A stretch of 64,000 nt of DNA from positions 22,280 through 86,279 of the forward strand of contig CAYFPJ010000003.1 of NCBI GenBank assembly GCA_964344965.1, in the 5' to 3' direction. The position numbers and the translations under genes are program-made. Shown here in pieces: positions 10,949-62,527 of the stretch. The stretch is from an uncultured Gammaproteobacteria bacterium. GTDB lineage: Bacteria > Patescibacteriota > Patescibacteriia > Magasanikbacterales > UBA922. How positions within the stretch are numbered: the first letter of the stretch is position 1; each line of letters begins with the position of its first letter. The notes beneath the pieces were generated by a model that did no database searches, was not told where the DNA came from, and was given only the letters and a program-made list of their open reading frames with translations.

Positions 10949-10955
10949 AATTTTA

Positions 10956-11483: not shown

Positions 11484-11501
11484 TTTTGTATTTATTTTTT
11501 T

Positions 11502-11646: not shown

Positions 11647-12972
11647 TTTTGTCGCACAATCGTCCAATTCAATCTTTAATATCTCTGCTAAGCCGTCGAT
11701 GCATGACTCAATGGTATCACATCTATGTGAAGGTGCTCCGCGTAATGTCCAGCCAAAATCTATTAATCCTTCTTCTAGTTCATATCTTTTATTATCAACG
11801 ACAGTTATATTTTCTTTTTCACCTACATAGCTTAACATTACCTCCTCCCCTGCCCTCAAAGCATCAAAAGCTCTCCTTTCGGTCAGGTCGAGTTTGAAAG
11901 GAGAATCATCAAAAATTTTCTCTCTCGCGCTTTGTTTTTGCTCATCACTAATCACGAAATTGTTTTTTATGATGTCTTCTGGAGAGACACGATCTCCTTT
12001 TTTTATTTTCCCATCGTGTTCAATTTCTAATTTGTAAAAATGAGAATCTGCTGTCTGTAGATAGACTGGCATGTCTTGCCTATTGGCGTAAACTGTCAAG
12101 TTGTGTGCGTGGGAAAGGACTTCTTCTCTGTCCTTGCCATACGTATCTGTTGCAATGGTAGTCCAAGTTGGATTTAAAAGATCTTCGTGCACATATATAC
12201 CAGCAATACTTGGATCAGATATGATAATTTCGTTGTAATCACCGTCTTGTTTTTGTGTGATTGCTGTTGATATTTCTTTTTCAATATCTTCGGGATCTAG
12301 GTATCCTGACATTCGTGCTGTTCCTCTGGCACTTGCACCTGCATCATGTCTATTTGCATTTTTTACTACACCGCCATTTAGTAAAACCCCCATTTTATAA
12401 AATGTTTTATCTTTGGTTTCCGGGTCATCTCTGACACTGCTAGTTGAAATTTCAGGGGCAAGTCCAATAAGTACAGAGAGCCGTTCTTTCCACGTTGCTT
12501 CTTTTAACATAACAGTATTTGCTCTTGTTTTAGTAGCTGCAAAGCCATGAGTCAAAAATATATTATATTTTTTGATTACTTCTTTTACATCGTATGTCTT
12601 ATGACTCTTTTCACGCTTTTCTGTGGTTAGAAGTTCAAGTTCAGACGCCATGACGTCTGTTCTATCCATTCCAGATGATACTCTTGTTACTTCATTAAAT
12701 TCTGTCTCTAATTCTAACAAGGTTTTTCTCTCTCTTTCAAGATCTTTAGATAGTTTGCGTATCTTAAAATAGTTTAATATTTCACCTAAAATTTTTATTT
12801 TTAATAGAGTAATCCTTTGCTCAAGATTTTCAATGTCCCTTCGTATTTGTTCAGAAAGTTTTTTGTCTCTTTCGTCTTTAGTATCTTTCCCTGTTCTCCC
12901 CATGACAGATTCCATACCATTTTTTAATTCTCTAGACGATATATGTGTATCTTGTGTAAGATTTTTATCCAT
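11551..12972 (-). CDS. hypothetical protein (473 aa): N-terminal coiled coil plus a globular C-terminal domain. Its C-terminal 20 aa are encoded by repeat A
   Basis: Long ORF immediately downstream of tgt (4-bp spacer), probably co-transcribed. No motif recognised. Confidence 0.45.
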   Translation of the reverse strand: MDKNLTQDTHISSRELKNGMESVMGRTGKDTKDERDKKLSEQIRRDIENLEQRITLLKIKILGEILNYFKIRKLSKDLERERKTLLELETEFNEVTRVSSGMDRTDVMASELELLTTEKREKSHKTYDVKEVIKKYNIFLTHGFAATKTRANTVMLKEATWKERLSVLIGLAPEISTSSVRDDPETKDKTFYKMGVLLNGGVVKNANRHDAGASARGTARMSGYLDPEDIEKEISTAITQKQDGDYNEIIISDPSIAGIYVHEDLLNPTWTTIATDTYGKDREEVLSHAHNLTVYANRQDMPVYLQTADSHFYKLEIEHDGKIKKGDRVSPEDIIKNNFVISDEQKQSAREKIFDDSPFKLDLTERRAFDALRAGEEVMLSYVGEKENITVVDNKRYELEEGLIDFGWTLRGAPSHRCDTIESCIDGLAEILKIELDDCATKNKSKFGLSKTSSGHPRSKLRGIGRKSYFNQC

Positions 12973-12978: not shown

Positions 12979-14325
12979 TTATTGTGTCCACTCTTTCTTC
13001 ATTTCTAAAAATTTATTTTCTCGAATTTTTTCTCGGACCCTTTTCATCAAGTTTAACATAAAATGTAGATTGTGTATTGTGGCTAGTCTATAGGCGAGCA
13101 TTTCTCCTGCTTTGAACAGGTGATGGAGGTATTGACGAGAATGGTTTTGGCAAGTGAAGCAGGTGCAAGTTGGGTCGATTGGGTTGGGATCATTGCGGTG
13201 TTTTGTGTTGCGGATGTTGAGGGTATATTTTTTTTCTTTCAACGAAGAACCCCCCTTTATCCCCCCTACAAGGGGGGAAATATAGAGAGTACCATTTCTG
13301 GCGATGCGGGTGGGGGAGACGCAGTCGAACATGTCGACGCCGCGTTCGACAACTTCGAAGAGGTCTAGCGGAGAGTGTCCTACTCCCATAGTGTAGTGAG
13401 GTTTTTCTTTGGGAATTATAGGATTGACCCAGTCAAGGATTTGTTTGGTTGCCTCCATATTGTAACCAACACTTTCTCCACCAATGGCAATGCCATCAAA
13501 ATCAAGTGATGAAATGAATTTTGCGCTTTCTTCACGGAGATGTTTGTGATTGGCGCCTTGGATTATGCCAAAGAGAAATTTTTTATGAGTTGCAGACCCA
13601 AGAGACCCCTCCCGCACTCGCTTCGCTCGTGTCGACCTCCCCTCAGAGGGGAGGTTAACTCGCTGTAGTTTGGTATGTTCGATAAGACAGCGGCGAGCCC
13701 AGTCGTGAGTTCTTTCCATTGCTTTTTTTGTATATTTTTCATTAGCATCATCTGGGGTACATTCGTCAAAAGCCATGATGATGTCTGCTCCAATCTTGTG
13801 CTGTATATTTATTGCTTCTTCTGGAGTGAAGCGGTGTGTCGATCCGTCTATGTGGGAACGGAATGTGACACCGTCGTTGTCTATTTTGACTAGTTTTGTT
13901 TGATTGTTGGTTTGTGTTGGTGGGGTGTTACTCGATTCCAGCGAAGACCCCTCCCGCACTCGTTTCGCTCGTGTCGACCTCCCCTTATAGGGGGGGTTAT
14001 TTACTTGCTTTCTTACTTTTTCCTTACCAAGAGAGAACACCTGAAAGCCTCCTGAATCTGTTAGGACCGGCCGATCCCAGTTCATGAATTTATGGATTCC
14101 TCCAGAATCGGCAATTAGATTTTCTCCGGGTCGAAGATGAAGATGGTAAGTGTTGGCAAGAATGATTTGAGCGTCAATATTTTTCAAATCTTCGTTATCA
14201 AGAGATTTGACGGTGGCTTGGGTTCCGACTGGCATGAAGATCGGTGTTTCAACATCACCATGATCAGTATGGAGTATTCCTGTTCTTGCTAGACAGTTTT
14301 TTTCTTGATGTGTTATTTCAAACAT
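12979..14325 (-). CDS. tgt: queuine tRNA-ribosyltransferase, with three in-frame repeat-derived insertions (448 aa against ~370-385 typical)
   Basis: Tgt blocks FMPVGTQATVK, LTDSGGFQVFSL, IMAFDEC, GIAIGG, MFDCV and zinc site CxC..C are all present. Confidence 0.85.
   Translation of the reverse strand: MFEITHQEKNCLARTGILHTDHGDVETPIFMPVGTQATVKSLDNEDLKNIDAQIILANTYHLHLRPGENLIADSGGIHKFMNWDRPVLTDSGGFQVFSLGKEKVRKQVNNPPYKGRSTRAKRVREGSSLESSNTPPTQTNNQTKLVKIDNDGVTFRSHIDGSTHRFTPEEAINIQHKIGADIIMAFDECTPDDANEKYTKKAMERTHDWARRCLIEHTKLQRVNLPSEGRSTRAKRVREGSLGSATHKKFLFGIIQGANHKHLREESAKFISSLDFDGIAIGGESVGYNMEATKQILDWVNPIIPKEKPHYTMGVGHSPLDLFEVVERGVDMFDCVSPTRIARNGTLYISPLVGGIKGGSSLKEKKYTLNIRNTKHRNDPNPIDPTCTCFTCQNHSRQYLHHLFKAGEMLAYRLATIHNLHFMLNLMKRVREKIRENKFLEMKKEWTQ
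13246..13282. repeat. GC hairpin micro-repeat (CCCCCC-tacaa-GGGGGG) inserted in frame in tgt (encodes PLVGGIKGGSS)
   Basis: Same hairpin type as 49689-49709 and 37897-37917. Absent from the Tgt alignment recalled from memory. Confidence 0.6.
13604..13660. repeat. GC-rich palindromic element (agacccctcccgcactcg..gtcgacctcccct-cag-aggggagg) in frame in tgt (encodes SEGRSTRAKRVREGS)
   Basis: ~93% identical to 13944-14000. Related to the intergenic copies at 37979-38010 and 49789-49820. Confidence 0.7.
13944..14000. repeat. GC-rich palindromic element, second in-frame copy in tgt (encodes KGRSTRAKRVREGS)
   Basis: Direct sequence comparison with 13604-13660. Confidence 0.7.
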
Positions 14326-19639: not shown

Positions 19640-20250
19640 CAATTTAAAATTTAAAGACCCCCCCGTGGGATTAAATCCCCAGCTTTTAGGCTGATCTTTC
19701 AAGTCCAGGCATCCTGTGATAGTATGTCCGTATATGAAATACGAAAGAAAATCCTCCCATACCATATACGATCATAAGTACCACATATGCTGGATTACCA
19801 AGTATCGCTACCAGGTACTAAAAGGTCAGGTTGCCATTAGATTACGTGAATTAATCAAACAAGTTTGTAAGCAACAAAGCGTTGAGATTATCGAGGGTCA
19901 CGTCCGCCCAGAACACGTCCACCTATTCGTCTCAGTACCTCCACACATCTCCATCAGCAAGCTGATGCAACTAGTCAAAGGACGAACAGGCAGAAAGATG
20001 CTCCAGGAATTTGAAGAGCTTCGCAAGCGATACTATGGCGGACACCTTTGGACAAGAGGATTCTACTCTGCCACTTCAGGTAATGTAACCGACGAAACCA
20101 TCCAACAATACGTACATAGCCAAGACAAGAAAGAAATGAAAGATGACGAAACATTCCAAGTAACAGAGTAATCGTACTTTAGTGTCATTCATGACAAATT
20201 CCCACAGATTCTTTCGGCTTTAGCCGATAGTGGTTCAAATTAAAATTAAA
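19640..20250 (+). mobile_element. IS200/IS605-family insertion sequence (tnpA only); boundaries approximate
   Basis: Y1/HUH transposase gene, with subterminal hairpin-capable sequences on both sides. Confidence 0.6.
19716..20171 (+). CDS. tnpA: IS200-type transposase TnpA (Y1 HUH); the likely true start is 19734 (MKYERK)
   Basis: HICWITKYRY, HVHLFVSVPP (HUH) and the catalytic YY...G region. ~140 aa. Confidence 0.85.
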   Translation: MIVCPYMKYERKSSHTIYDHKYHICWITKYRYQVLKGQVAIRLRELIKQVCKQQSVEIIEGHVRPEHVHLFVSVPPHISISKLMQLVKGRTGRKMLQEFEELRKRYYGGHLWTRGFYSATSGNVTDETIQQYVHSQDKKEMKDDETFQVTE

Positions 20251-36572: not shown

Positions 36573-36579
36573 ACTACCA

Positions 36580-36696
36580 CGCAACCCACCTCCTGTCCTC
36601 CTCCCTTAAAAAAGGAGGAGGAACTTGCTGAATAGTAAATACTTATTAGAACGTCCTCCCTCCCTAATAAGGGAGGGAGACAGAGGGTGGGTTGCG
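36580..36696. repeat. composite palindromic element, family B copy 2 (inverted orientation relative to copy 1)
   Basis: cgcaacccacc...ggtgggttgcg outer stem with CCTCCTCCC/GGAGGAGG and CCTCCCTCCC/GGGAGGGAG inner hairpins. Confidence 0.7.
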
Positions 36697-36800
36697 TGAT
36701 AGCATCAAAATCCCTTGCAACACCCTCTTCTCCATGTGGACAACTTTCTTGACAGTACTATCCTATAGGTCTAAACTAAAAATAGATTATATTAATCAAT

Positions 36801-36974: not shown

Positions 36975-37544
36975 CTAGGTTCAAATAGCATTACACATCC
37001 CGGTAAAATGGGATGTTTTTTATTAGAGATTAAGTACATTTGTAGATAATAGCAGGAACCCTCTCCCCTCGGCCTGAGCTCGGGACGAAGGCCAACTCCC
37101 CCTACTAGGGGGAGGGAAATATCGGATGATCGAGGTTTGCAAGGCTGATTAAGCTATGTAGACCTTGGTTACTTCGGTAGCCTAACCTATTGACAAATGA
37201 CCTGGATACTGGTAAGTATTCAGCAAGGTTGTGGGATTTTTAAGGAATGTTGGTCTGATATTCCTTTGAAATTTCTATAACCTTTGAATCATTTGTCATT
37301 TCCCCTCGTTCTTTCCAAGGAGAAATAAGCAGCATATGAATGCACATGTTCCCCACAAACGGTGGATTAGGCGTTGATGATTTCAAGCCGGGCGGAGGTC
37401 TTTGGTAGATTATTATAATAATCTCTAAAGATCACCGTCTGGCCGAGAAATTTTTCAAAGCCGGGCACCTTGGGGCCTCGCCCCGAAACCTAAGGGGTCA
37501 TCTCGGCCCCGCATTCGGGGCATTCGCTCCAAGGAGAGAGGTCC

Positions 37545-37829
37545 ATGACCTCCGACTTCAGCACCACCACCGCCACCACCGCCACCACCGCCACGGATCC
37601 AGTGGATCCGAGAGAGACCGCCGACCCTGACACCGTCAGGGGATGGAGATCCTGGTCCGCCTCAACCGAGGAGGGAGCCGGCGTCGCCGGCAGCGGTCTT
37701 GGCCCAGCTAGGGTCGTGGTAGGGGTGGGGGAGCGTGTGAGTTCCCCGAGATGTAGGTCGTTCGCGACCTGTCTATCTCGGGCGTCATTTCGTATGCTGC
37801 CCCACCTCTCTTGTTCATTTAAGTTTTAA
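37545..37829 (+). CDS. small ORF in a ~400-bp GC-rich patch (94 aa, starts MTSDFSTTTATTATTATDPVDP); doubtful
   Basis: Strong SD AAGGAGAG 6 nt before the ATG. Contains an (ACCACCGCC)x3 microsatellite. GC content is far above background. Confidence 0.2.
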   Translation: MTSDFSTTTATTATTATDPVDPRETADPDTVRGWRSWSASTEEGAGVAGSGLGPARVVVGVGERVSSPRCRSFATCLSRASFRMLPHLSCSFKF

Positions 37830-38077
37830 GTGGGTAGAAGAGGCGGATGATTTTGAAAGACTCCTACTGATTGTGGGAGTTTTTTGTATGAAAAAATTCT
37901 CCCCCTCTTAGGGGGAGTTAGAGGAGGTTCGTTGTAATGAGATTATCTGTCATTATGTCAGTCTTATAAAATTGGTATGCACCCCTCCCAGCCTCCCCTA
38001 AAAGGGGAGGAGATATTTTGTCTTGTTAAAAAACACAATTTGAAAACACCCCTCATCTCTGATAAAGTATTCACTAT

Positions 38078-38941
38078 ATGAATCATGACCTCTTCAAACC
38101 AACTCATCTCAAAGAACTCTGTCAAAAATACGATCTCACGCCATCGAAAAAATATGGACAAAACTACTTGATCTCTGACGCTCCGATCAAAAAAATGATT
38201 GAGGCAGCTGACGTAAAAAAGACCGATATTATAGTAGAGATCGGTCCAGGTTTTGGAGTGCTTACTTTTGCTCTAGCAGAAGGAGCGGGTAAAGTTTTCA
38301 CATTTGAGATAGAAAGGAAACTAGAAGAGTATTGGGATGATGTTTTGGGAGATGGAGACAAGGAGATAAGTAGAGATAATAATATAGAGATAATTTGGGG
38401 CAATGCTTTGAAAAGTCTTAAATCTTATGTCTTAAATCTTAAGTCTGGATACAAAGTGATTGCAAACTTGCCATACCAGATTACTTCCAATGCTTTGAGG
38501 ATAATTTTGGAGGCAGAAAATAAGCCAGAATCTGTGACTGTGATGGTCCAGAAGGAGGTGGCAGAAAGAATTGTGGCGAAGCCAGGGGATATGAGCCTAC
38601 TTGCTGTTTCAGTGCAATATTATGGTGGACCAAAGATTGTTTGTAAGGTTCCGAGTGGATCATTTTGGCCTAGTCCGAAAGTGGATTCAGCGGTATTGTA
38701 TATAGACACCTCAACACCTAAACACTTTAACACTTTTTCTGATGATGATTTTTTTAAAGTTGTGCGGGCGGGATTTGCAAATAAGCGCAAACAACTGTGG
38801 CGAAATATTAGTGATGGATTGAAGATTGATAGGGGAGAGGTGAAAGAAGTCTTGAAGAATGTCGTTGGTAATGAAAAAGCACGAGCGCAGGAATTGAGTG
38901 TAGAGGAATGGAGAGAGGTGGTATCGACACTAAATAGTTAA
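38078..38941 (+). CDS. rsmA: 16S rRNA (adenine1518/1519-N6)-dimethyltransferase
   Basis: YGQNYLISDAPIKKMIEAA, SAM-binding VEIGPGFGVLT, and NLPYQITS. Confidence 0.85.
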   Translation: MNHDLFKPTHLKELCQKYDLTPSKKYGQNYLISDAPIKKMIEAADVKKTDIIVEIGPGFGVLTFALAEGAGKVFTFEIERKLEEYWDDVLGDGDKEISRDNNIEIIWGNALKSLKSYVLNLKSGYKVIANLPYQITSNALRIILEAENKPESVTVMVQKEVAERIVAKPGDMSLLAVSVQYYGGPKIVCKVPSGSFWPSPKVDSAVLYIDTSTPKHFNTFSDDDFFKVVRAGFANKRKQLWRNISDGLKIDRGEVKEVLKNVVGNEKARAQELSVEEWREVVSTLNS

Positions 38942-39085
38942 ATCTTTAAGCGGTTTTATTCCTCGATGCTTGCATCGAAAAAGTGAAAACTAACATTGGT
39001 TGAAATAAGATTTTCTGCCAATACCCCGCAGCTTGCTGCGGGGATGGCCCGATGAAGTCTTACTTAAACCAAATTTACTTTTATT
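38941..39085. repeat. 145-bp dispersed repeat, family A copy 3 (abuts the rsmA stop codon)
   Basis: Near-identical to 11502-11646. Confidence 0.85.
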
Positions 39086-39092
39086 GTACGAA

Positions 39093-53583: not shown

Positions 53584-56500
53584 GCTGCTTATATTTTTAG
53601 TACTACCGACAGCAGTCGTTGCTTCAATAATATTCAAACTCCCTTTCCAAGAAGGTGAGTATAGGGTTTTAACCAGGGGTTATGGTGTGCAGACTCATGT
53701 CGGCAAAGATGTGTATGCATTAGATTTTGCACTTGATGGCTGTGATTCTTGGAATAGGCCAGTAGTGGCGTTCATGGGTGGTACTGTAAGTAAGGTAGAC
53801 ACTGGCCATAAGCATGGGGAGAAAAATAGTTACGGAAACCAGGTGTTAATAGAGCATGAAGATAATTTGGTAAGTAGGTATGCTCACTTAAATGAGGTGT
53901 TGGTTGATGTTGGTAATGAAATTAAGCAAGGAGAGATTTTAGGAAGAGAAGGTAATACAGGGAGTGTTTGGGGCTCTGCATGTAAAGAACACCCCGGAAC
54001 ACATCTTCATTTTGTTGTATACAAGAGGGATGATTTTGGTAACCTCGCTCCTTACAAACCAGAGCCCATGTCTGGTTATCAAAATTTTACACCCGGAAAA
54101 TGGTACCAATCTGACAATAAAATTCAGGAAGAAAATAAAGAAGAGCCAACAGAACCTCCACAAACAAAACCACAAAAAAATCCTTCCTTTTTTGAAAAAA
54201 TAAAAGATTTTTTTAAAGATATTTTTTATGGAGATGATAATGAGGTAGAGACAGAAGTAGAAGAAGAAATAGTTTCAGAGGAAAATGATTTGGGTGATAG
54301 CTTGGAAAAAACTTATAATGTTTCCATCTTAAACACCCCTGCCTCTGCAGAAGTGGACAAAGATACTGCAGAATATCAGGTAGTGGTAAAAATAAAAAAT
54401 ACCAGTGATATTACAATAAAAAAAGAAGAATTCTCGGTCAACATTGTAGGTGAGCCATATCAATACACAGATTATTATCACCCCTCTTGGCTGACAAAGA
54501 GAAGGCCTGCACATCTCGACCAGAGCGAGATTGAACCTGGACAAAATGGTACTTTTTCATTTCTCATTTCGGTCCCCCCGGAACCTGGAAAACACAATTT
54601 TCAATTACAAATTGTCCGTCAAGAAGGCAGTCAGTTTTTTCAAGTTGGCGGTCAGTTTTTTGACCTAAACATACAGAAACAAGAAGAACAAAAAATAGAG
54701 GAAGAAAACGTGGAAGAAGTACTTGGTGAGAAAATATATCAAGAGGAAAGTGAAGGAGTGGTGGAGAAGGCCAAAGAAATAATTGAAGACGTCAGTGACA
54801 CAGTAGAAGAAATAATAGAAGATTTTGTCGAAGTATTGCCCCCATTTTTTTATGGAGGCGGGTCTTCTCAAACAGAGGGGAGTGAAAATGTGGAAGAGCA
54901 AGAGGAGGATGCTGTCGAAGACGATAATCCAGAAGATAGCATCCCTCATATCACAATCACCAATCCGGCTGGCTTGGAAGTGTTTACCAATAATCAGATC
55001 TTAACCATCGAAGGAACTAGGAGCGCTGAAGATGTGGATATTTATATCAATGGAGTGCCAAATTCAGTATCATTTTCTTCTGGCACAAACTGGTCTACAG
55101 AGATGAATTTGGAAGAAGGAGAAAATATTTTTGAAATTTGGGGAGAAGATAGTGATGAGAATAAGACTGCCGTTTTTTCTTTTTTGGTTGTTTTAGATAC
55201 TACATCTCCGACAGTTCCCACTATAGACATCATACAGACTAACTTTGTCACTCCCACACTTCAAGTGAGCTGGTCTAGCACAGATGATGGAGTCGGGGTG
55301 AGTAGCTACGATGTGGAGTATAAAATTGGCAATGAAGATTGGAGTAGTTTATTTTTACACACCACCACAACAGAGAGTGAAATACAAGTCGAACAACAGC
55401 AAGAATATTTTTTTAGAGCTAGAGCTAGAGATGTATTGGAGAATATTTCTGAATGGAGTGGTGACGAAGACAGTGTTTTCTTTGCTGACTGGACAAAAGA
55501 TGTAGTCATCAACGAGGTGGCTTGGATGGGTACCTCTGCTGTAAAAAATCTATCCAACGACTGTACAAAAAATGAGTGGTTGGAATTGTACAACGGTACT
55601 GCAGAGAATATCAATTTGGATTCTTGGGCACTGGGTATACTCTCTCCAAATGGAGATGTCCAAACCATTGAATTATCTGGAAGCATCTTGCCAGAAGATT
55701 ATTATTTGATCGTGAGGAAGCTCGGTAAGAGGCAAGCTCTGAAAAATATTGAAATTGGTCAAATTTTTGAATCAATTGACATTCCTAACAATGGTGGAAG
55801 TCTGGTACTGAAAGATGAATCTGGAAATATCATAGATGAAGTCGACTTTTCCACTGGATGGCCTGGAGGGTCTGTCAGCTCTGGGCCAAATAATAATTTT
55901 TATCAACCAATGTCGCGGGTCTCTCCCAATGCGCCTGGAAGTTTGTCGTCAAATTGGGGTACCAGCTCTCACTTATCAATGTTTGGTTCGACTGATAACT
56001 GTGGAGAGCTATTTGGTAGTCCTGGTAAAAAAAATAATCAACTTTGGCTACTAAAAAATTTACCATTTTATTATGCTGACTTTTTTGAAAATGGAGAAAT
56101 GGTTCTTGAGGAAAAACATAGTCCTTATGTCTTAGACTATGGTACAGAAGTGCCGGTCGGGAAAATGATGAAAATAAATCCCGGAGTGACAGTGGTAGGT
56201 GCAGGTCCGGATGCTTATTTGCGAGTCACTGGTGATCTGTCTGTAAATGGTACAAGTGAGAAGCCGGTAGTTTTTACTTCAGCTCGAGATTTAGATTATG
56301 GAGATTGGAATTTGCCAAATTTTGACCAAGAAGATCCTCGGCCTGGAGATTGGTCACGAATCGAGGTCGAAGAAGGTGGTAGTATCCATATTGACCATGC
56401 AGAATTTTTGTATGGAGGATATCCTTTCAAAAAAGGGAATGATTGGGTCTATGGACTCAAAGAGCTTTCTCAAGTGATTAGAGTGTCTTCGGCAAATGCA

Positions 56501-57439
56501 GATATTAGTAATTCTAAATTTTTGTACAATTATGAATATGATCTCGAACCATACTATAATTCTGTTGTATGGGTCGATACACAAAAAGGTGAGCCTTCTA
56601 TAATAGATTTTGACAACAATATCTTTGACTCAGGATATGTGGCGATAAACTTGTGGGGTCAAAACAATGGTTTGGAAATAAATTCTACAATTACAAATAA
56701 TATTATTCAAAATTTTTCTAGTCCAGAAGGCCCCCTTAAATTCATTCATAATTCGCCAACATTAATAGATAATACATTTTTAAATAACATTTTTGATGGT
56801 ATTTCTGGAGGACATATTTTGGTGAGTGATGCGCAGACAATGGACCCAAGTTTTTCACATATTTATGATGAAATAGAGATATTAGACTCTGGCAGCTTGA
56901 TCATTCCGGCTGGTACTGAACTGTATATTCGTGTTGGAGGAGGTATAATAAATAGTGGTTTTTTAAATTTTAGCGGCACCAATATTGCTCCTATCAACAT
57001 ATCTGGCTATGGTGGAAGTTGGGGTAACATGACTACTGATGGAGGTGTGCTTTCGGCAAATTATTTGAATATGAAAGGAGGAAGTGGAGCTGAGGGGATG
57101 CTTATTTTGGAAAATCAATCTGTAGCCAACATTGAGAATAGTCAGCTTATGGATTCAAGTAGGCCGGGGATTATCTTGCAAAGCACAGGGAGTGAGATTA
57201 ATTTGAAAAATACAACAGTGGGCTGGAGTACACCTCTGGCAGCAGATGCACCAGATAGTTGGACAACGACTGGGATAGAAATGTTTGGTGGAAGTTTGAG
57301 TTTGGACAATGTCACTCTACAAGAGATGACAAATGGGATAATTGGCTATGATGGGGCTATCGCTACTATGATCAATATGTCCAGCAGCAGTTTTATAAAT
57401 ATTAGTGAATTGGATTGGTGGCCTGATGACCTGCTGTAG
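53543..57439 (+). CDS. large secreted multidomain protein: N-terminal M23 (LytM-like) metallopeptidase, an Ig/Fn3-like region, a lamin-tail domain, and C-terminal right-handed beta-helix repeats
   Basis: M23 motifs HVGKDVYALDF...GNQVLIEHEDNLVSRYAHL...GTHLHFVV. LTD motif VVINEVAWMG...NEWLELYNGTAENINLDSW. NNIIQNF-type beta-helix repeats. Confidence 0.65.
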   Translation: MKLSKKLLKARVAKLLIFLVLPTAVVASIIFKLPFQEGEYRVLTRGYGVQTHVGKDVYALDFALDGCDSWNRPVVAFMGGTVSKVDTGHKHGEKNSYGNQVLIEHEDNLVSRYAHLNEVLVDVGNEIKQGEILGREGNTGSVWGSACKEHPGTHLHFVVYKRDDFGNLAPYKPEPMSGYQNFTPGKWYQSDNKIQEENKEEPTEPPQTKPQKNPSFFEKIKDFFKDIFYGDDNEVETEVEEEIVSEENDLGDSLEKTYNVSILNTPASAEVDKDTAEYQVVVKIKNTSDITIKKEEFSVNIVGEPYQYTDYYHPSWLTKRRPAHLDQSEIEPGQNGTFSFLISVPPEPGKHNFQLQIVRQEGSQFFQVGGQFFDLNIQKQEEQKIEEENVEEVLGEKIYQEESEGVVEKAKEIIEDVSDTVEEIIEDFVEVLPPFFYGGGSSQTEGSENVEEQEEDAVEDDNPEDSIPHITITNPAGLEVFTNNQILTIEGTRSAEDVDIYINGVPNSVSFSSGTNWSTEMNLEEGENIFEIWGEDSDENKTAVFSFLVVLDTTSPTVPTIDIIQTNFVTPTLQVSWSSTDDGVGVSSYDVEYKIGNEDWSSLFLHTTTTESEIQVEQQQEYFFRARARDVLENISEWSGDEDSVFFADWTKDVVINEVAWMGTSAVKNLSNDCTKNEWLELYNGTAENINLDSWALGILSPNGDVQTIELSGSILPEDYYLIVRKLGKRQALKNIEIGQIFESIDIPNNGGSLVLKDESGNIIDEVDFSTGWPGGSVSSGPNNNFYQPMSRVSPNAPGSLSSNWGTSSHLSMFGSTDNCGELFGSPGKKNNQLWLLKNLPFYYADFFENGEMVLEEKHSPYVLDYGTEVPVGKMMKINPGVTVVGAGPDAYLRVTGDLSVNGTSEKPVVFTSARDLDYGDWNLPNFDQEDPRPGDWSRIEVEEGGSIHIDHAEFLYGGYPFKKGNDWVYGLKELSQVIRVSSANADISNSKFLYNYEYDLEPYYNSVVWVDTQKGEPSIIDFDNNIFDSGYVAINLWGQNNGLEINSTITNNIIQNFSSPEGPLKFIHNSPTLIDNTFLNNIFDGISGGHILVSDAQTMDPSFSHIYDEIEILDSGSLIIPAGTELYIRVGGGIINSGFLNFSGTNIAPINISGYGGSWGNMTTDGGVLSANYLNMKGGSGAEGMLILENQSVANIENSQLMDSSRPGIILQSTGSEINLKNTTVGWSTPLAADAPDSWTTTGIEMFGGSLSLDNVTLQEMTNGIIGYDGAIATMINMSSSSFINISELDWWPDDLL

Positions 57440-57578
57440 TCACCAAAATGACTAAAAAATACGTCTAAAAGCGTATTTTTTGTGCACAATTTTTATTGTT
57501 AAGTAAGTAAAAAAAGGGTATAATTAAACAAAGTAAGAACTCATATCAAGTTTTTCAAACCCACCAAAATATTAACTT

Positions 57579-57704
57579 ACGAGTAGTGTGAATTAAAATT
57601 GATATTTTCCTTATTTTAGCAAAATATGAATTTTCCGCATATCTATTTTCTAAAAATATTTAGCTAAATTAAGCCAAACGAGTCTAATTCACACTACTCG
57701 TTAA
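57579..57704. mobile_element. 126-bp element with 17-bp terminal inverted repeats (ACGAGTAGTGTGAATTA ... TAATTCACACTACTCGT), copy 1
   Basis: 100% identical to 62363-62488 in direct orientation. Perfect TIRs and no coding capacity. Confidence 0.65.
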
Positions 57705-57721
57705 TTAGTGATTAGAAAAAT

Positions 57722-57757
57722 AAAAACATCCTAATAGATATTGGGATGTTTTTTTAG
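57722..57757 (+). terminator. terminator ACATCC-taatagatatt-GGGATGT plus T-run
   Basis: Seen directly. Confidence 0.5.
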
Positions 57758-57769
57758 AACTTACATCAT

Positions 57770-57876
57770 TCAGTCGGAAATATATATCTTTGACTTGGCG
57801 CCAACTCAGGATCGCAAGCAGCGGCGCTCAAGTCAAAGATATATATTTTTTCCTAAAGCTCAAACGTATAAGTCCT
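57770..57876. repeat. 107-bp hairpin element D, copy A (left flank of the GC island)
   Basis: ~75-80% identical to 58769-58876. The internal hairpin is kept by compensatory changes (gacttg/caagtc against gtcttg/caagac). Confidence 0.65.
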
Positions 57877-57986
57877 ATTTTTTTTGAGAAAGGAATCTTT
57901 CCAGAATTGGAAGAGCGGACCTGTGGGAGGGTCCGCTCGTTGTTCGCCGCCGCCCGCCTCCGGAGAGGCAGGCGACGACAGGCAAT

Positions 57987-58715
57987 TCAATCGACGAAGG
58001 GGGTGCGGTGGCACCACTCCTTCGTCGAAAGCTGGACGTCGCCGTCCTTCCCCGTCACCTGACGGGTCTGGACGAGACACCCGTCCTCGCCGAGGAAGGT
58101 CTCGTAGACCTCCTCGGCGAGGACCGTTTCAAATTCGTCGAGGTAGGTGAGGATTACCCTCACCGGGAGCTCGGCCTGGAGGCCGAACTCGCCCTGGAGG
58201 AGCGCCTCGCTCCCCCAGACCTCGACGAGCCACTGCTCGTCGTGTGGGGTGGCGTGGAACTCTACCACGCCGTCCCACAGCCCCACAGCGTTGGCGAAGG
58301 GGCCCTCCACCTCGACCGTGGGGTCGTCGTCGACCCCGACATTTGGAGACTCGGGCAGTGCCCGAGTCTCCGCTGCCAGGGGGGGGTGGCCAGTGACCGC
58401 CCCCTCGTTGGTTGCCCCCGCCACCTTGGCGGGGGCTTCTGTCGCGACCGGCCCCTCGATTGGGGCCGAGTCACACCCCCCCGCCCAAAGGGCGAGGAGG
58501 ACCGCCGCCAGAATGGCGGCGGGGCGGCGCTCAATCCACCGGCCGGTGGAGAGCGCCGAGGCACGGGTGTGTCGCACCCGTCCTCCTTCCCCTTGCGGGG
58601 GGTGTGTGGAGCTCCCGCCATCATCCCCCGTGGATGATGGCAGTTGCTCCGGTAATGAGAAGCGCTTTTTTTGCAAAGATATTCTCAATACCGGAGCAGG
58701 AGAGTCTCCATTCAT
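57987..58715 (-). CDS. secreted/lipoprotein-like acidic protein in a ~65% GC island (signal ...AAILAAVLLALWAGGC)
   Basis: Signal peptide plus Cys. GC hairpin just downstream. All six frames are open in this island, so the frame is chosen by protein-likeness. Confidence 0.35.
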   Translation of the reverse strand: MNGDSPAPVLRISLQKKRFSLPEQLPSSTGDDGGSSTHPPQGEGGRVRHTRASALSTGRWIERRPAAILAAVLLALWAGGCDSAPIEGPVATEAPAKVAGATNEGAVTGHPPLAAETRALPESPNVGVDDDPTVEVEGPFANAVGLWDGVVEFHATPHDEQWLVEVWGSEALLQGEFGLQAELPVRVILTYLDEFETVLAEEVYETFLGEDGCLVQTRQVTGKDGDVQLSTKEWCHRTPFVD

Positions 58716-58768
58716 TTATTCTAGTGAATTTTTGTATCCACAAAGAAAAATCTTAGGACTTACGCCTT

Positions 58769-58876
58769 TCAGTCGGAGATATATCCCTTTGTCTTGGCGC
58801 TAACTGAAAGTCGCAAGCACTAGCGCTCAAGACAAAGGGATGTATTTCCTCCTTATAGCTCAAAGGCGTAAGTCCT
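58769..58876. repeat. 107-bp hairpin element D, copy B (right flank of the GC island)
   Basis: Direct comparison with copy A. Confidence 0.65.
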
Positions 58877-59297
58877 GAATCTTTAGAAGATGTCTGTACG
58901 TATCAAAGATTCATTTTTGTAGATACAAATCTACCAATGATATTAGTTACTTTCATTGATTTAACAAAAGTATTTTTTCGCTGTGAAATTCTCCGCCAAC
59001 TGGCGGATCAGACAATCTTCGCTTCAAAAATACTTTTGTTAAATCAATTGGGGAAAATAATTGCCTTGAATTACGAAAACCTGCCTTGAGAGCGAATAAA
59101 TAAAAGTTATATTCCTCCCCCGCCTTCGGCGGGGGAGGAATATTTCTCTTTTTTCTTCGCAGCAAGTTTAGCTTCGTAATCCAAAGTAATTAATATCATT
59201 GGTAAATCCACCAAGAGTTATCAAGGCCCAATTATCCATTATCTAGTATCTCTCAAAAAATATAGTTTTGTCAAGATATGACTAGATAATTGCCCTA

Positions 59298-62177
59298 TTA
59301 TAAACGAGATGTTTCATGATAGCGGACAGATTTGTCCACTCTTAAAATTTTTTCATTTCTACTATTTTCTAACACATCTCCGATATATGATGGAGTAGAA
59401 AATACATCACTATAGAAGTCAAAAAAATCTGGTTCAATAATCAATCTTAGATCATCGAAAATCACTGCTCCACTGTCTTGGGCAGACAAGTCTTCATCAG
59501 TCATCATCATTACTTTTATAGAAGCTGTATTGTCTGGGATTTTTTTGTTTTTGGCAAACAGTTGGACTTTTTCGGGATTGCTCCCTGGCACATAAAAGAT
59601 TTTGTACATTTCATTTATTACTACGCCGGCATCATCCAAAAATTGGATTTTCAATACAGGATCGAGATTGCTCGGCCCACTTTTCACTTTGGCTTCTAGA
59701 TTGGCCGACAGCCAGCCAAAATTCACCTCTGGAATATCAAGACAATCCAGAGAAACCTCTTGACTTAGACTACCCCCTTTATATATCTGGAAGTGGGGAT
59801 TTCCGCCAAAGTCAAATAAGCCAACTTTTTTTAGATCATTGGCCTGCCATGATGACAAGTCATTGTCTTTTGCTCCCGGATTCAAGAGATTGGACGACGA
59901 AGGATAAGTGACTGAAGCCCTGACAGAATTATAGTTGACAGGATCAATTGTAACGGCACTTTCAGTGCCAACCAAAGTCTCTGCAGGATCAAATGTCCCT
60001 TTGGCATACCATTGTATTGCCATGTCTGTCTCTTCTATCTCTGCATCAAGTTCAATTGGGATCTTGGCGAGATAATTCCCAGACCATGGAAGAGGATCAA
60101 GAGTAATGGTGTTAAGTTTTAATTTGTTTCTACATGTTGCATCAAAGGTCATCGTTCGGAGACCTTTGGTTTCTTCATTGAAATATTTTGCCAAATTTAA
60201 TTCTGCTTGGATTGGTCTACTTTTCAAAAAGTATTCGATGTCATCAATTTTTTGTTGCCAAGTTTTTTTCCAATCACTAGCACTTTTATCAGACTCTTCA
60301 AAGGGAATAATCCATTTTTCAGCTTGTTTCTCTATCTCTGGATCTATTTTTTGAGCTAGTTCTTCTAGGAGGGGAATCGTATTTTTTGATTTGAAATGAG
60401 TATTCAAAAGATCAAGATAACGATTGATGAATTGATGACGAAATGTTTCATTATCCATCATCTTATCTAGGACAAAACCAAATAGAGATGGGGCTGGGCC
60501 TTGCCAGTCCACACCACTAAGCACTTCATCAATTTTATTTTGATTAATGGCATTATTGACTCCCACCTGTGCACCAAAAGTAGAGTCTCCATCTTTCAGT
60601 ACCCAGTGCCAAACATCATGAGAGCTTTCTGTTGATTGCCAAAATTTTATATTGTTGCCAGGCCAATCATTGTTGGATACAAATATGTTCAAGATTGCAT
60701 AGTCTATAATATTTTCTACATCAACATTATTTTTAATAAAAGAATAAGCAGATCCAGAATCCATGTCATATTCATTGAGAGCATAAAAAAATTCTTCAAA
60801 ATTTTCATTATGAAATACTCCAATCTCTTCATCTTCTCCAAACTCGACGCTATCTTTGTCAACATTATGATTTGACTCCACATAGTATTGATCTATTCTC
60901 TCTCGGAGATTGTAAATACCATAGTATTCTCCATTTACAAATAGAGAAACAGGTATATATTCTTGATTATCTACATTCAACCCTCTACCAAGCACATTTA
61001 AGAGAGGATCATTGAGGTGACTAGCTATTGCAGGAGACGCAAAACTACTTTGACTACCACTGCGAAGGACTAGTCTTTTGAAAGTATCAATATTTTTTTC
61101 TGGAAAAAATTGGTATTCAAAATTATCAGTCCCATATTTTTCTCTTGCATAAAGGCGAAATGAACCTGGTGGCACATCTGAAAATTTTGCAATACCATTT
61201 CTTTTCATTCCGACATTTGCCCGCAATATTGGCTCTCCAGTGGGTGAAAAATACTCAAAATAACCCTGATGTTCATATACATTTTGGTTGGTAGTGTCCA
61301 AGACTCCTTTTGCGCCAAACAAATCATGATCTGTGGATATAATAGATACAATAGGAAGGGTAGATTGTTCATTGAAAAAAAATGTCCGATTTACGACTTG
61401 ACTGGCTCCGCCATTTTCGTCAAATGCTTTGGCACGTATGACCATGGTATCGGTGCCATTGATAGGCTGGGTGTAAAATATGCCGGATTTATCTGGAATA
61501 GAGCCATCAAGTGTATAGCGAATTTCCAAATCCAAATTTATCTCGTTATTTTCTGATATCGCTAGCAGCCCCACCCAAAAAGGATTGTATTGGATGCTGC
61601 TTGTATCTGAAAACAAAGGAGAAAGCAAGATTTGACTTTCAGCGTTTTCTTCTGCCGGTGTGGGAATGGCAAATGTCGACCAGGTATTGCCTCCGGCAAG
61701 TCTGCCGTATGAGATGTCTACAGGCAACTGATCAAAGTATACTTCATCGATGAGAGTGATTCCTGCTGGGTTATAAATACCGACATATTCACCATCTGCA
61801 TCTAATTTGAATTTTAGTTCATTAGGGTATGGGGGACTATCTCCATTGGCCCACAAGATGCGATATTCATGAGGCCCTATGTCCGGAGTATCGGATGGAA
61901 TCATGGTCTTGTCTGGATTTTCTGGATCGTCTGTAATCAGGAGATTGGCGATGGTGATCGGCTTGTCTGTAGGGTTGTACAACTCTATCCAATCTGAATA
62001 ACCTGTGACAGGGTGCTCTAAGGTATTGCCATTGGCAGACATTAGTTCATTTATTACCAAATCTTGCAATTCTCCTTTCACTTGTAACGGAAAAAACACC
62101 AATCCGATGAAGAATATCAACATGCTTATTTTTTTACCTATGTATAGGCAATATTTTGTCTTTTTGTTTAGATGCAT
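59298..62177 (-). CDS. secreted lamin-tail-domain plus CotH-family protein (959 aa)
   Basis: Signal-anchor. LTD block LVINELMSANGN...SDWIELYNPTDKPITIANL. The central region resembles the CotH kinase-like family. Recalled from memory. Confidence 0.6.
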   Translation of the reverse strand: MHLNKKTKYCLYIGKKISMLIFFIGLVFFPLQVKGELQDLVINELMSANGNTLEHPVTGYSDWIELYNPTDKPITIANLLITDDPENPDKTMIPSDTPDIGPHEYRILWANGDSPPYPNELKFKLDADGEYVGIYNPAGITLIDEVYFDQLPVDISYGRLAGGNTWSTFAIPTPAEENAESQILLSPLFSDTSSIQYNPFWVGLLAISENNEINLDLEIRYTLDGSIPDKSGIFYTQPINGTDTMVIRAKAFDENGGASQVVNRTFFFNEQSTLPIVSIISTDHDLFGAKGVLDTTNQNVYEHQGYFEYFSPTGEPILRANVGMKRNGIAKFSDVPPGSFRLYAREKYGTDNFEYQFFPEKNIDTFKRLVLRSGSQSSFASPAIASHLNDPLLNVLGRGLNVDNQEYIPVSLFVNGEYYGIYNLRERIDQYYVESNHNVDKDSVEFGEDEEIGVFHNENFEEFFYALNEYDMDSGSAYSFIKNNVDVENIIDYAILNIFVSNNDWPGNNIKFWQSTESSHDVWHWVLKDGDSTFGAQVGVNNAINQNKIDEVLSGVDWQGPAPSLFGFVLDKMMDNETFRHQFINRYLDLLNTHFKSKNTIPLLEELAQKIDPEIEKQAEKWIIPFEESDKSASDWKKTWQQKIDDIEYFLKSRPIQAELNLAKYFNEETKGLRTMTFDATCRNKLKLNTITLDPLPWSGNYLAKIPIELDAEIEETDMAIQWYAKGTFDPAETLVGTESAVTIDPVNYNSVRASVTYPSSSNLLNPGAKDNDLSSWQANDLKKVGLFDFGGNPHFQIYKGGSLSQEVSLDCLDIPEVNFGWLSANLEAKVKSGPSNLDPVLKIQFLDDAGVVINEMYKIFYVPGSNPEKVQLFAKNKKIPDNTASIKVMMMTDEDLSAQDSGAVIFDDLRLIIEPDFFDFYSDVFSTPSYIGDVLENSRNEKILRVDKSVRYHETSRL

Positions 62178-62362
62178 AAATTTGTCTGTTTTATTTCTAT
62201 ATGATAAAATATACTACATATTGAGTGATAAATAAACAACTCATTATACATATGAAATTGGGTTTTGTCAAGATGCTCGAAAAAATAAAGGAGGAGCAGT
62301 CTTTTTTGGTATTGTATAAAAAATTACCATCCTCCTCTTAATTTTTAGGAGATAGAATATTT

Positions 62363-62488
62363 AACGAGTAGTGTGAATTAAAATTGATATTTTCCTTATT
62401 TTAGCAAAATATGAATTTTCCGCATATCTATTTTCTAAAAATATTTAGCTAAATTAAGCCAAACGAGTCTAATTCACACTACTCGTTA
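62363..62488. mobile_element. 126-bp element with terminal inverted repeats, copy 2 (identical to 57579-57704)
   Basis: Identity seen directly. Confidence 0.65.
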
Positions 62489-62527
62489 TTTAACAAAAAG
62501 CTATATCCATCAGAACATTTGGTTAAT

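What the first reader, a model, noticed from the sequence alone, without database searches (positions are those of the whole stretch)
57579..62488. Two 100%-identical 126-bp elements with terminal inverted repeats, in direct orientation, bracketing 4.66 kb
The elements at 57579-57704 and 62363-62488 are identical over 126 bp and carry perfect 17-bp TIRs (ACGAGTAGTGTGAATTA). They have no coding capacity, so they look like MITEs.
Between them lie the GC-rich cassette 2 with its own hairpin flanks and the LTD-CotH gene.
The perfect identity implies recent transposition or gene conversion. The direct-repeat geometry creates a deletion/excision-prone composite unit.
Basis: seen in the sequence. Interest (0 to 1): 0.6.

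Follow-up and report, generated by a model that had tools for sequence, protein, structure and literature searches.

The report
Identical small non-coding transposon copies (MITE)
Two identical 123-bp non-coding mobile elements (MITEs) lie in the gaps on either side of a surface-protein gene in an uncultured Patescibacteria (CPR) genome; this is an ordinary kind of bacterial repeat, new only for this group and with no transposase identified yet.

Summary
The element is 123 bp (57579-57701 and 62364-62486). Exact identity runs 125 bp, and the 17-bp terminal inverted repeats (TIRs) are perfect. Both copies are in direct orientation, intergenic and non-coding.

The MITE reading is well supported:
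- A third 100%-identical copy lies next to an SSF transporter gene on other contigs of the same population.
- Copy 2 is flanked by a perfect direct duplication, TATTTA.
- Metagenomes hold at least three further subfamilies of 127-223-bp non-coding palindromic elements. They have the same 17-bp ends, unrelated interiors and the same TAnTTA flanking duplications.

Independent assemblies of four or five sequencing runs reproduce three of the four junctions, so it is not an assembly duplication.

The "composite unit" idea is not supported. Copy 2 has its own duplication, the outer flanks do not match, and no deletion variant was seen. Two ENA contigs join copy 2 to a different neighbour. The branch point is exactly one k-mer long, so this may be a graph artefact rather than recombination.

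No autonomous IS with these ends was found in about 185,000 species genomes or 241 million metagenome contigs. Verdict: a new member of a known kind, of low to moderate interest.

The parts
57579..57701 (+). MITE copy 1 (123 bp). TIRs at 57579-57595 and 57685-57701. It lies 140 nt downstream of the stop of the 1298-aa M23-peptidase/LTD gene (53543-57439).
   Evidence: junctions also in L004, L001, L002, L012 and L103
62364..62486 (+). MITE copy 2 (123 bp, 100% identical, same orientation). TIRs at 62364-62380 and 62470-62486. It lies between the divergent LTD-CotH gene and a large beta-helix-type secreted-protein gene.
   Evidence: left junction also in L001, L002 and L003
62358..62363 (.). 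Left copy of the target-site duplication of copy 2 (TATTTA).
   Evidence: sequence; comparison across the family
62487..62492 (.). Right copy of the target-site duplication of copy 2 (TATTTA).
   Evidence: sequence
57573..57578 (.). Left flank of copy 1 (TAACTT). It matches the right flank at only 4 of 6 positions, so the duplication is either decayed or rearranged.
   Evidence: sequence
57702..57707 (.). Right flank of copy 1 (TAATTA), which fits the family target consensus TAnTTA.
   Evidence: sequence
57702..62363 (.). Bracketed 4,662-bp segment. This is context, not part of the element. It holds: palindromic repeat H1 (57757-57875); a 58-74% GC island with a 242-aa ORF (57987-58715, minus strand); palindromic repeat H2 (58752-58880); a 134-bp palindrome (58935-59068); a bidirectional terminator (59109-59143); the LTD-CotH gene (59298-62177, minus strand); and its consensus promoter (62271-62243).

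Best explanation
The two sequences are copies of a miniature inverted-repeat transposable element: a 123-bp non-autonomous, non-coding DNA transposon.

- **Host.** An uncultured Patescibacteria/CPR bacterium, with closest relatives among Candidatus Parcubacteria and Magasanikbacteria.
- **Mechanism (inferred).** A transposase supplied in trans binds the conserved 17-bp ends (ACGAGTAGTGTGAATTA). It inserts the element into AT-rich intergenic targets of the form TAnTTA. Staggered cleavage and repair then duplicate 4-6 bp of the target.
- **This locus.** Each copy inserted, or at least copy 2 did, independently into an intergenic gap. The bracketing of the GC-rich island and the CotH gene is a by-product, not a functional unit.
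- **Likely consequences (inferred).** The copies give 125 bp of perfect homology for recombination. Any transcript that reads through a copy acquires a 17-bp perfect stem within a -36 kcal/mol hairpin. This is the kind of structure RNase III cuts in Correia-containing mRNAs, and the window encodes RNase III.

Shown: anatomy, copy number, flanking duplications, and the family with shared ends. Inferred: the transposase, the mechanism of mobilisation, and any effect on neighbouring genes.
For: - **TIR and chance.** Perfect 17-bp TIRs at four sites, against 0.22 expected.
- **Copies.** 125 bp of exact identity between two copies 4.8 kb apart.
- **Basic MITE traits.** No ORF, 27% GC, intergenic; long-hairpin fold with z about -8.
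- **Third copy.** A 100%-identical copy abuts the 3' end of an SSF-transporter gene on ENA contigs L001/L110. In the NCBI assembly that gene sits on a different, 36-kb contig.
- **Assembly behaviour.** Assemblies of several runs break exactly at the element, as expected for a dispersed repeat.
- **Duplication at copy 2.** Perfect 6-bp direct duplication TATTTA.
- **Family elsewhere.** The exact TIR recurs in JGI metagenome contigs as the ends of 127-, 189-, 198- and 223-bp non-coding palindromic elements with unrelated interiors. These are L015/L026/L104, L013/L018, L016 and L038, plus truncated copies L022, L028, L029 and L039.
- **Family flanks.** TACTTA|TACTTA, TGCTTA|TACTTA and TAATTA|GAATTA. 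The one variable position covaries in 5 of 6 elements, with an exact permutation probability of 12/720 (about 0.017) worked out by hand from the flank letters listed.
- **Fit to the definition.** These features match the published structural definition of prokaryotic MITEs: under 500 bp, TIRs of 4-30 bp, flanking direct repeats in young copies, AT-rich, intergenic, and stable stem-loops. 'Type II' MITEs share only the TIRs (PMC10969869).
Against: - **No partner found.** No autonomous element with these ends turned up.
  - Exact-TIR scans of GTDB species genomes, JGI metagenome contigs and IMG/VR gave no pair of ends 0.7-4 kb apart.
  - No transposase ORF lies inside any single hit.
  - The only transposase in the window is an IS200-like Y1 enzyme whose flanks are unrelated.
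- **Duplication statistics are modest.** Both flanks follow a strong consensus, and the permutation test on summed matches gives p = 0.056.
  - Copy 1 has 4 of 6 matching flank positions and L016 has 1 of 6.
  - A 2-bp TA duplication (IS630-like) fits 4 of 6 elements and cannot be excluded.
- **No empty site.** No presence/absence polymorphism was found. Relatives at about 78% protein identity are too diverged for this test.
- **One unconfirmed junction.** The element-2R junction is not confirmed by an independent contig.
Confidence: 0.8

Rival explanations
1. Composite mobile unit. The two copies act together as the ends of a 4.9-kb compound transposon, or mark a segment that is regularly excised. 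This unit would have brought in or would move the GC-rich cassette and the CotH gene.
For: - Each copy has both ends, so the outer ends of the pair form a valid inverted pair.
- MITE-flanked cargo, including integrons and resistance genes, is documented in the literature (PMC10969869).
- The segment contains a compositionally foreign island of up to 74% GC.
- Contig L002 is exactly the segment bounded by the two copies, although that is also what a repeat-induced assembly break produces.
Against: - Copy 2 has its own perfect duplication on both of its sides.
- The outer flanks TAACTT and TATTTA agree at only 3 of 6 positions.
- CotH has host-like composition, with GC3 of 0.32.
- The GC island has its own, different flanking palindromes H1/H2.
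- The segment was not found in any other genomic context.
- No deletion joint appears among six contigs carrying the upstream gene.
Confidence: 0.05
2. REPIN- or PATE-like element. The hairpin repeat would be moved as single-stranded DNA by a Y1 (HUH) transposase such as a RAYT or an IS200/IS605 TnpA, not by a DDE transposase.
For: - The window encodes an IS200-like Y1 transposase at 19716-20171, E = 1.9e-41.
- The element folds into one long hairpin.
- The TIR contains GTAG, the tetranucleotide conserved at REP ends (my own knowledge; also mentioned for QMITE2 in PMC10969869).
Against: - The Y1 gene's flanks carry their own small hairpins and nothing like the TIR. The TIR with up to 3 mismatches occurs nowhere else in the window.
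- The 17-mer is not itself a hairpin, as a REP unit must be.
- Y1 transposition makes no target duplication, yet direct duplications flank several family members.
Confidence: 0.05
3. Integron-type attC sites (VCR-like). These would be about 123-bp imperfect palindromes in direct orientation that bracket cassettes and are recombined by an integron integrase.
For: - The size (123 bp), imperfect palindromy and direct orientation around ORF-containing segments resemble Vibrio VCR arrays (my own knowledge).
- The ends read ...AAC|GAG...CTC|GTT..., which recalls the AAC/GTT of the R''/R' core sites.
Against: - The flanks are direct, not inverted, repeats of each other. They read TATTTA on both sides, whereas R''/R' must be complementary.
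- GTTATTT and GTTAATT do not fit GTTRRRY.
- The 17-bp stem is perfect, without the extrahelical bases attC sites need.
- The same 17-mer sequence is conserved between unrelated interiors and organisms, whereas attC sites conserve structure rather than sequence.
- No tyrosine recombinase was found among the window's ORFs that were scanned or pre-annotated.
- The third copy lies next to housekeeping genes.
Confidence: 0.02
4. A functional structured RNA or regulatory module (small RNA, terminator or insulator) kept identical by selection or gene conversion, rather than a mobile element.
For: - The predicted structure is very stable.
- Copy 1 lies between a promoter-like site (57496-57524) and a hairpin followed by a T-run at about 57726-57756 (my reading of the sequence). 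It could therefore be part of a short transcript.
Against: - No Rfam family matches, even at E <= 1, apart from hairpin noise.
- The interiors of family members are unrelated and only the 17-bp ends are conserved. That is the opposite of what selection on an RNA would give.
- The flanking contexts of the three copies differ: the 3' end of one gene, a divergent promoter region, and the 3' end of the SSF gene.
- No T-run follows the hairpin.
Confidence: 0.04
5. Assembly duplication: a repeat wrongly placed twice by the assembler.
For: - The element-2R junction occurs only in the window.
- Two ENA contigs (L001 and one similar) join copy 2 to the SSF gene instead.
Against: - Three of the four junctions are reproduced at 100% identity by two assemblers in four or five runs.
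- The flanks of the three copies are all different.
- Copy 2 in the window's arrangement has a perfect duplication.
- L110 ends, and L002 begins, with the same 127-mer (TTA + element + T). This is exactly the k-mer size, so the alternative joint can be explained by an unresolvable graph vertex.
Confidence: 0.02

Closest known systems
Correia repeat-enclosed elements (CREE/NEMIS) of Neisseria
   Same: - Short non-coding elements with TIRs, found in many near-identical intergenic copies.
- Their transcripts form stem-loops that RNase III cuts.
- They can carry promoters (PMC10969869).
- No transposase is known for them (my own knowledge), as is the case here.
   Different: - The sequences are unrelated. 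There is only a short TAGTG..ATTAA resemblance in the TIR, recalled from memory and possibly due to chance.
- Correia TIRs are about 26 bp and duplicate TA (my own knowledge), whereas this element has 17-bp TIRs and a (TA)nTTA duplication.
- The host here is a CPR bacterium, and only 3 copies have been seen so far.
ERIC/IRU elements of enterobacteria (127-bp imperfect palindromes)
   Same: Almost the same size; imperfect palindromes; intergenic; affect mRNA stability when co-transcribed (PMC10969869, PMC2229807).
   Different: No sequence similarity. ERIC copies are old and diverged, whereas these are 100% identical. The terminal sequences and the host phylum differ.
MITECca01 of the Cardinium endosymbiont (derived from ISCca4, IS982 family)
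   Same: A MITE discovered by manual curation in a small, host-dependent bacterial genome. It is defined by the inverted repeats it shares with an IS (PMC9769881).
   Different: For MITECca01 the parental IS is present and identified, whereas here none was found. It is about 240 bp against 123 bp. That IS982 ends begin with 'AC' and give 3-9-bp duplications is only my recollection and was not tested.
RUP of Streptococcus pneumoniae and other IS630-type MITEs
   Same: About 100-bp TIR elements thought to be mobilised in trans. A TA dinucleotide flanks most ends of the present family: 5 of 6 left ends and 5 of 6 right ends.
   Different: The duplication here extends beyond TA, with the variable third position covarying. 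No IS630-like partner was found.
REPINs mobilised by RAYTs
   Same: Hairpin-forming, non-coding, dispersed repeats of about 100 nt (PMC3116915).
   Different: REPINs are pairs of REP hairpins without target duplications, and they are tied to a RAYT flanked by the same REPs. None of these holds here.
Integron attC sites (e.g. Vibrio cholerae repeats)
   Same: About 120-bp imperfect palindromes in direct orientation around gene-containing segments.
   Different: The core sites are not complementary, there is no integrase, the stem is perfect, and sequence rather than structure is conserved at the ends (see the rival explanation).

Membership tests
Prokaryotic MITE | Short length (<500 bp) and no transposase or other ORF | tested here: met
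   123 bp; longest stop-free stretch 27 codons
Prokaryotic MITE | Terminal inverted repeats (about 4-30 bp) | tested here: met
   Perfect 17-bp TIR; four sites against 0.22 expected
Prokaryotic MITE | Flanking direct repeats (target-site duplication) in young copies | tested here: met
   Copy 2 TATTTA|TATTTA and L013 TACTTA|TACTTA are perfect. L038 and L015 match at 5 of 6, copy 1 at 4 of 6, and L016 at 1 of 6. The variable position covaries in 5 of 6 (about p 0.017, worked out by hand from the flank letters). The summed-match permutation test gives p 0.056. The duplication length (4-6 bp against 2 bp TA) is not settled.
Prokaryotic MITE | Several copies dispersed at unrelated sites | tested here: met
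   Three 100%-identical copies with three different contexts. The total copy number in the genome is unknown.
Prokaryotic MITE | AT-rich, inserted in AT-rich intergenic DNA, with a transcript that can form a stable stem-loop | tested here: met
   27% GC; all copies intergenic; folding energy about -36 kcal/mol, z -8
Prokaryotic MITE | An autonomous IS with matching ends that can supply transposase in trans | tested here: inconclusive
   No IS with the exact 17-mer was found in GTDB species genomes, JGI contigs or IMG/VR, and no transposase ORF lies next to the single hits. Ends with mismatches, and the rest of this genome, could not be searched.
Prokaryotic MITE | Insertion polymorphism (filled and empty sites between strains) | not testable with these tools
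   All retrieved contigs of the population carry the element. The nearest relatives (about 78% protein identity) are too diverged.
IS630/Tc1-mariner-type MITE | TA target duplicated on both sides | tested here: inconclusive
   TA|element|TA holds in 4 of 6 complete elements. The direct match extends to 6 bp in 2 elements and to 5 of 6 positions in 2 more.
REPIN / RAYT system | REP unit that is itself a hairpin, a RAYT gene flanked by the same REPs, and no target duplication | tested here: not met
   The 17-mer has no internal hairpin. The flanks of the Y1 gene at 19716-20171 are unrelated. Duplications are present.
Integron attC | Complementary R'' (RYYYAAC) and R' (GTTRRRY) core sites, extrahelical bases, and an associated IntI integrase | tested here: not met
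   The flanks are direct, not complementary. GTTATTT and GTTAATT do not fit the core site. The stem is a perfect 17 bp. No recombinase appears among the ORFs scanned or pre-annotated.
Known RNA families (Rfam 15) | Match at or near a family's gathering score | tested here: not met
   Only two tRNAs in the window reach gathering score. Over the element, only miRNA-hairpin noise far below threshold.

The most novel reading that the evidence does not exclude
The 17-bp terminus marks a Patescibacteria-wide family of non-autonomous elements moved by a transposase that has not yet been recognised. No IS with these ends exists in about 185,000 species genomes or 241 million metagenome contigs. On this reading, pairs of such palindromic elements (this MITE, and the H1/H2 repeats around the 74%-GC gene) would be the vehicles that import and reshuffle compositionally foreign cassettes and surface-protein genes in these reduced genomes. 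The alternative CotH-element-SSF joint seen in two assemblies would then be a live example.
Probability: 0.12. Interest if true: 0.55.

Novelty: new member of a known kind. Interest (0 to 1): 0.25.

Why it matters
MITEs are a textbook class of bacterial repeat, so the existence of one is not surprising. Three things give this case modest value.

- **New host group.** I found no description of MITEs in CPR/Patescibacteria in the searchable literature. These small genomes are usually treated as poor in mobile DNA, yet this window alone carries at least four families of palindromic or structured repeats.
- **A usable handle.** The same 17-bp end on unrelated interiors in several metagenomes defines a 'type II' MITE family. 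It gives a concrete sequence with which to fish for its transposase.
- **A practical warning.** The copies are exactly where short-read assemblies of this population break or mis-join. That matters for anyone interpreting synteny or 'islands' in such MAGs.

Tried and rejected
- **Exact-TIR scans.** GTDB genomes gave 7 single chance hits and IMG/VR gave none; a 14-mer gave 58 chance hits. JGI contigs gave 28 loci, of which about 12 are real family members.
- **Transposase next to single hits.** Inward ORFs at every single hit were inspected. They are a glycosyltransferase, gamma-glutamyltranspeptidase, a methyltransferase, DHPS and others, with no transposase among them.
- **BLAST of the element.** Plasmids gave no match; phages gave only sub-significant AT-rich matches.
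- **Literature.** A search for the TIR string and for the project accession found nothing.
- **Rfam.** Searches at gathering score and at E <= 1 gave no family.
- **Confirming the element-2R junction.** The downstream gene runs off the window. A homology search with its first 491 residues returned only a 38%-identical Magasanikbacteria protein.
- **Other flank of copy X.** The exact SSF protein was not returned by the homology search.
- **Empty site.** Downstream of SSF, relatives have ordinary terminators and are too diverged to serve as empty sites.
- **IS200-like gene as mobiliser.** Considered and rejected because its flanks are unrelated.
- **attC reading.** Considered and rejected because the flanks are direct rather than complementary.
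- **Promoter inside copy 2.** I considered whether the downstream gene's promoter must lie inside copy 2. I dropped the idea because a TTG start at about 62644, with a typical signal peptide, leaves room for the promoter-like site at 62582-62611.

Full report
**1. The observation**

The window has two copies of a 123-bp sequence, at 57579-57701 and 62364-62486, in the same orientation. The exact identity run is 125 bp (57579-57703 = 62364-62488).

Each copy begins with ACGAGTAGTGTGAATTA and ends with its exact reverse complement. With up to three mismatches this 17-mer occurs only at these four places in 64 kb, against 0.22 expected, and no shuffle reached four.

The element is 27% GC and has no open frame longer than 27 codons. 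It is an imperfect palindrome throughout, folding at -35.6 and -37.8 kcal/mol on the two strands, z about -8 and -7. The inner segment is 4,662 bp.

**2. Surroundings**

The window is ordinary bacterial chromosome. It carries RNase III, FemAB, YceG, QueA, TGT, ClpP, NDK, KsgA and two tRNAs, interspersed with very large secreted proteins. The nearest homologues of two proteins come from Candidatus Parcubacteria and Magasanikbacteria, so the host is a CPR/Patescibacteria bacterium.

- Copy 1 lies 140 nt after the stop of a 1298-aa M23-peptidase/LTD gene.
- Copy 2 lies between the divergent 959-aa LTD-CotH gene and a beta-helix-type secreted protein that runs off the window. The consensus promoter of CotH (TTGACA-17-TATAAT, 62271-62243) is outside the element.
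- The bracketed segment also holds the following:
  - a GC island of up to 74% GC, flanked by its own pair of palindromic direct repeats, H1 and H2;
  - a further 134-bp palindrome;
  - a bidirectional terminator.

**3. Not an assembly artefact, and at least three copies**

Look-ups by exact protein returned MEGAHIT (k=127) and Logan contigs from runs ERR2281800, -02, -03 and -04 that are 100% identical to the window.

- L004 runs from the upstream gene through the whole of copy 1.
- L002 is exactly the stretch between the two copies.
- L003, L012 and L103 end inside a copy.

This is the behaviour of a dispersed repeat.

L001 and L110 carry a third, 100%-identical copy immediately after an SSF-transporter gene (Exo_endo_phos-LGT-TPK-SSF block). 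That block is not in the window, and in the NCBI assembly it lies on a separate 36-kb contig.

L001, and one similar contig not shown, joins this SSF flank to the CotH side of copy 2. L110 ends, and L002 starts, with the same 127-mer: TTA + element + T, window 62361-62487. That is exactly the k-mer size, so copy 2 and the SSF copy share an unresolvable graph vertex. The alternative joint may therefore be a mis-resolution. It could also be a real recombinant, and I could not decide between the two. The window's own element-to-beta-helix junction is not confirmed by an independent contig, but it is the arrangement that gives a perfect flanking duplication.

**4. A family with the same ends**

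The exact 17-mer gave only single chance hits in one genome per GTDB species and none in viral contigs. In JGI metagenome contigs it gave 28 loci. About a dozen of these, mostly from five related samples, are non-coding elements bounded by the 17-mer and an inverted partner with 0-3 mismatches:

| Loci | Length |
|---|---|
| L015 = L026 = L104-L109 | 127 bp |
| L013 = L018 | 189 bp |
| L016 (perfect TIRs) | 198 bp |
| L038 | 223 bp |

There are also truncated or contig-end copies: L022, L028, L029, L039, and a second copy on L026/L104.

Their interiors are unrelated to the window's element and to each other apart from GC-rich hairpin modules. Conservation stops at position 17. They sit between ordinary genes (an exonuclease, a ferredoxin reductase, an Rrf2 regulator, a peroxiredoxin-like protein) and no transposase lies between or beside them. 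Contig GC ranges from 35% to 52%, so more than one organism carries the family. Conserved ends with free interiors is the pattern expected for elements recognised by one transposase, the 'type II' MITEs of PMC10969869.

**5. Target duplication**

The six bases outside the six complete elements:

| Element | Left flank | Right flank | Matches |
|---|---|---|---|
| copy 2 | TATTTA | TATTTA | 6/6 |
| L013 | TACTTA | TACTTA | 6/6 |
| L038 | TGCTTA | TACTTA | 5/6 |
| L015 | TAATTA | GAATTA | 5/6 |
| copy 1 | TAACTT | TAATTA | 4/6 |
| L016 | GTGCTA | TAAATC | 1/6 |

- The flanks are direct, not inverted, repeats. They share a consensus TAnTTA, and the only free position covaries in five of six elements. 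An exact count worked out by hand from the flank letters gives 12 of 720 permutations, about 0.017.
- Because of the strong consensus, a permutation test on total matches is only marginal (p = 0.056).
- If the right-hand TA is counted as part of the element, a 4-bp duplication nTTA is perfect in four of six.
- A plain TA duplication also fits four of six.

I conclude that a staggered-cut (DDE-type) insertion into a TAnTTA-like target is the best reading. The duplication is most likely 4-6 bp, with the length not settled. Copy 1 and L016 may have lost their duplications by recombination between copies.

**6. How it most likely works**

- Shown: anatomy, copy number, duplications, and the family.
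- Inferred: a transposase supplied in trans binds the 17-bp ends and inserts the element into AT-rich intergenic targets.
- Consequences, inferred from what is documented for other MITEs (PMC10969869): the copies are substrates for homologous recombination, and read-through transcripts acquire a long perfect stem. RNase III cleaves such stems in Correia-containing mRNAs, and the window encodes an RNase III.
- I found no convincing promoter inside the element. The downstream gene may start at a TTG near 62644, preceded by its own promoter-like site.

**7. The composite-unit idea**

Copy 2 has its own duplication on both of its sides, so it inserted alone. The outer flanks of the pair agree at 3 of 6 positions. 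CotH has host composition, with GC3 of 0.32. The GC island has separate flanking repeats. No recombinase is in the segment. None of six contigs with the upstream gene shows a deletion joint. Deletion between 125-bp direct repeats is possible in principle, but I saw no sign of it.

**8. Rivals**

- **REPIN/RAYT or IS200-type mobilisation.** The window does encode an IS200-like Y1 transposase. Its flanks are unrelated to the TIR, the 17-mer is not a hairpin, and Y1 transposition leaves no duplication.
- **Integron attC (VCR-like).** Size and geometry fit, but the flanks are direct rather than complementary, the core-site consensus is not met, the stem is perfect, and there is no integrase.
- **Structured RNA.** No Rfam match, and conservation is restricted to the ends.
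- **Assembly duplication.** Excluded for three of the four junctions by independent assemblies.

**9. Comparison with known systems**

The element meets every structural criterion of a prokaryotic MITE listed in PMC10969869. One is missing, an identified parental IS, and insertion polymorphism could not be tested.

In size and palindromy it is closest to ERIC (127 bp). In being an orphan with perfect copies it is closest to Correia elements. MITECca01 of Cardinium is a parallel case in a reduced genome, but there the IS982-family parent is present (PMC9769881). My recollection that IS982 ends start with AC and give 3-9-bp duplications is a lead only. A text search found no paper describing MITEs in the Candidate Phyla Radiation.

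**10. Verdict**

This is a real feature, correctly recognised as a MITE. It is a new member of a known kind. The composite reading is not supported. Interest is low to moderate. It rests on the shared-end family in CPR metagenomes, the missing transposase, and the practical effect on assemblies.

Noticed in passing
window 57870-58711 (also 9509-9805, 37419-37836, 49871-50446): GC-rich islands of 58-74% GC in a roughly 38% GC genome. The 58-kb island carries a 242-aa ORF (57987-58715, minus strand) with a coding-like GC1/GC2/GC3 of 0.72-0.76/0.49-0.50/0.79-0.84 (whole ORF to GC-rich core). Its only relative among 1.8 billion representative proteins is a 198-aa protein (P0147, 38-39% identity, E 3e-6). 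That protein comes from related CPR contigs, where the gene has normal 38% GC. The island DNA is identical in four or five independent run assemblies, so it is not a chimera.
   Followed up: partly
window 57757-57875 (H1) and 58752-58880 (H2): Two roughly 120-nt palindromic elements, 78% identical and in direct orientation, immediately flank the GC-rich island. The consensus hairpin has 39 pairs, and 5 of them are kept through changes on both sides between the two copies. No other copy occurs in the window.
   Followed up: partly
window 10951-11105, 11497-11649, 38936-39088; L001/L110 1-138: A roughly 150-nt repeat with two GC-rich hairpins, in three copies (85-99% identical). It also forms the other end of the SSF contigs, so assemblies break at it too. 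It folds well (z -4.5 and -6) but matches no Rfam family.
   Followed up: partly
window 6779-6900 and 36576-36697: A roughly 122-nt G-rich palindromic repeat, ACGCAACCCACC...GGTGGGTTGCGT, with internal GGGAGG/CCTCCC hairpins. There are two copies, inverted relative to each other, with no obvious target duplication.
   Followed up: partly
window 19716-20171 (+): IS200-like Y1 transposase gene (PF01797, E 1.9e-41) packed between two genes, with its own small flanking hairpins. It is the only transposase seen in the window.
   Followed up: partly
window 58935-59068: A 134-bp imperfect palindrome with 43-nt arms (79% complementary) between H2 and the CotH terminator. It may be another small repeat family.
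   Followed up: no
window 13603-13657 and 13945-13999, inside the TGT gene (12979-14325, minus strand): A duplicated 55-nt GC-rich repeat (93% identical) lies inside the tRNA-guanine transglycosylase ORF. The Pfam match to this ORF is split into two stretches, which suggests an in-frame insertion.
   Followed up: no
L001 4233-4400 versus window 62486-62500: Two ENA contigs join the CotH side of copy 2 to the 3' end of an SSF-transporter gene instead of to the beta-helix gene seen in the window. This is either a MITE-mediated rearrangement in the population or a k=127 graph mis-join.
   Followed up: partly
L026 91-217 and 2230-2318 (= L104 3381-3507 and 5520-5618): In a different organism (35% GC), two copies of a 127-bp family member with the same ends lie in inverted orientation around three ordinary genes. 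Pairs bracketing genes are therefore simply what dense intergenic insertion produces.
   Followed up: yes
window about 51.6-52.8 kb (L004 8070-9220): AbiEii-like toxin and PhdYeFM-type antitoxin genes lie next to the 50-kb GC-rich island.
   Followed up: no
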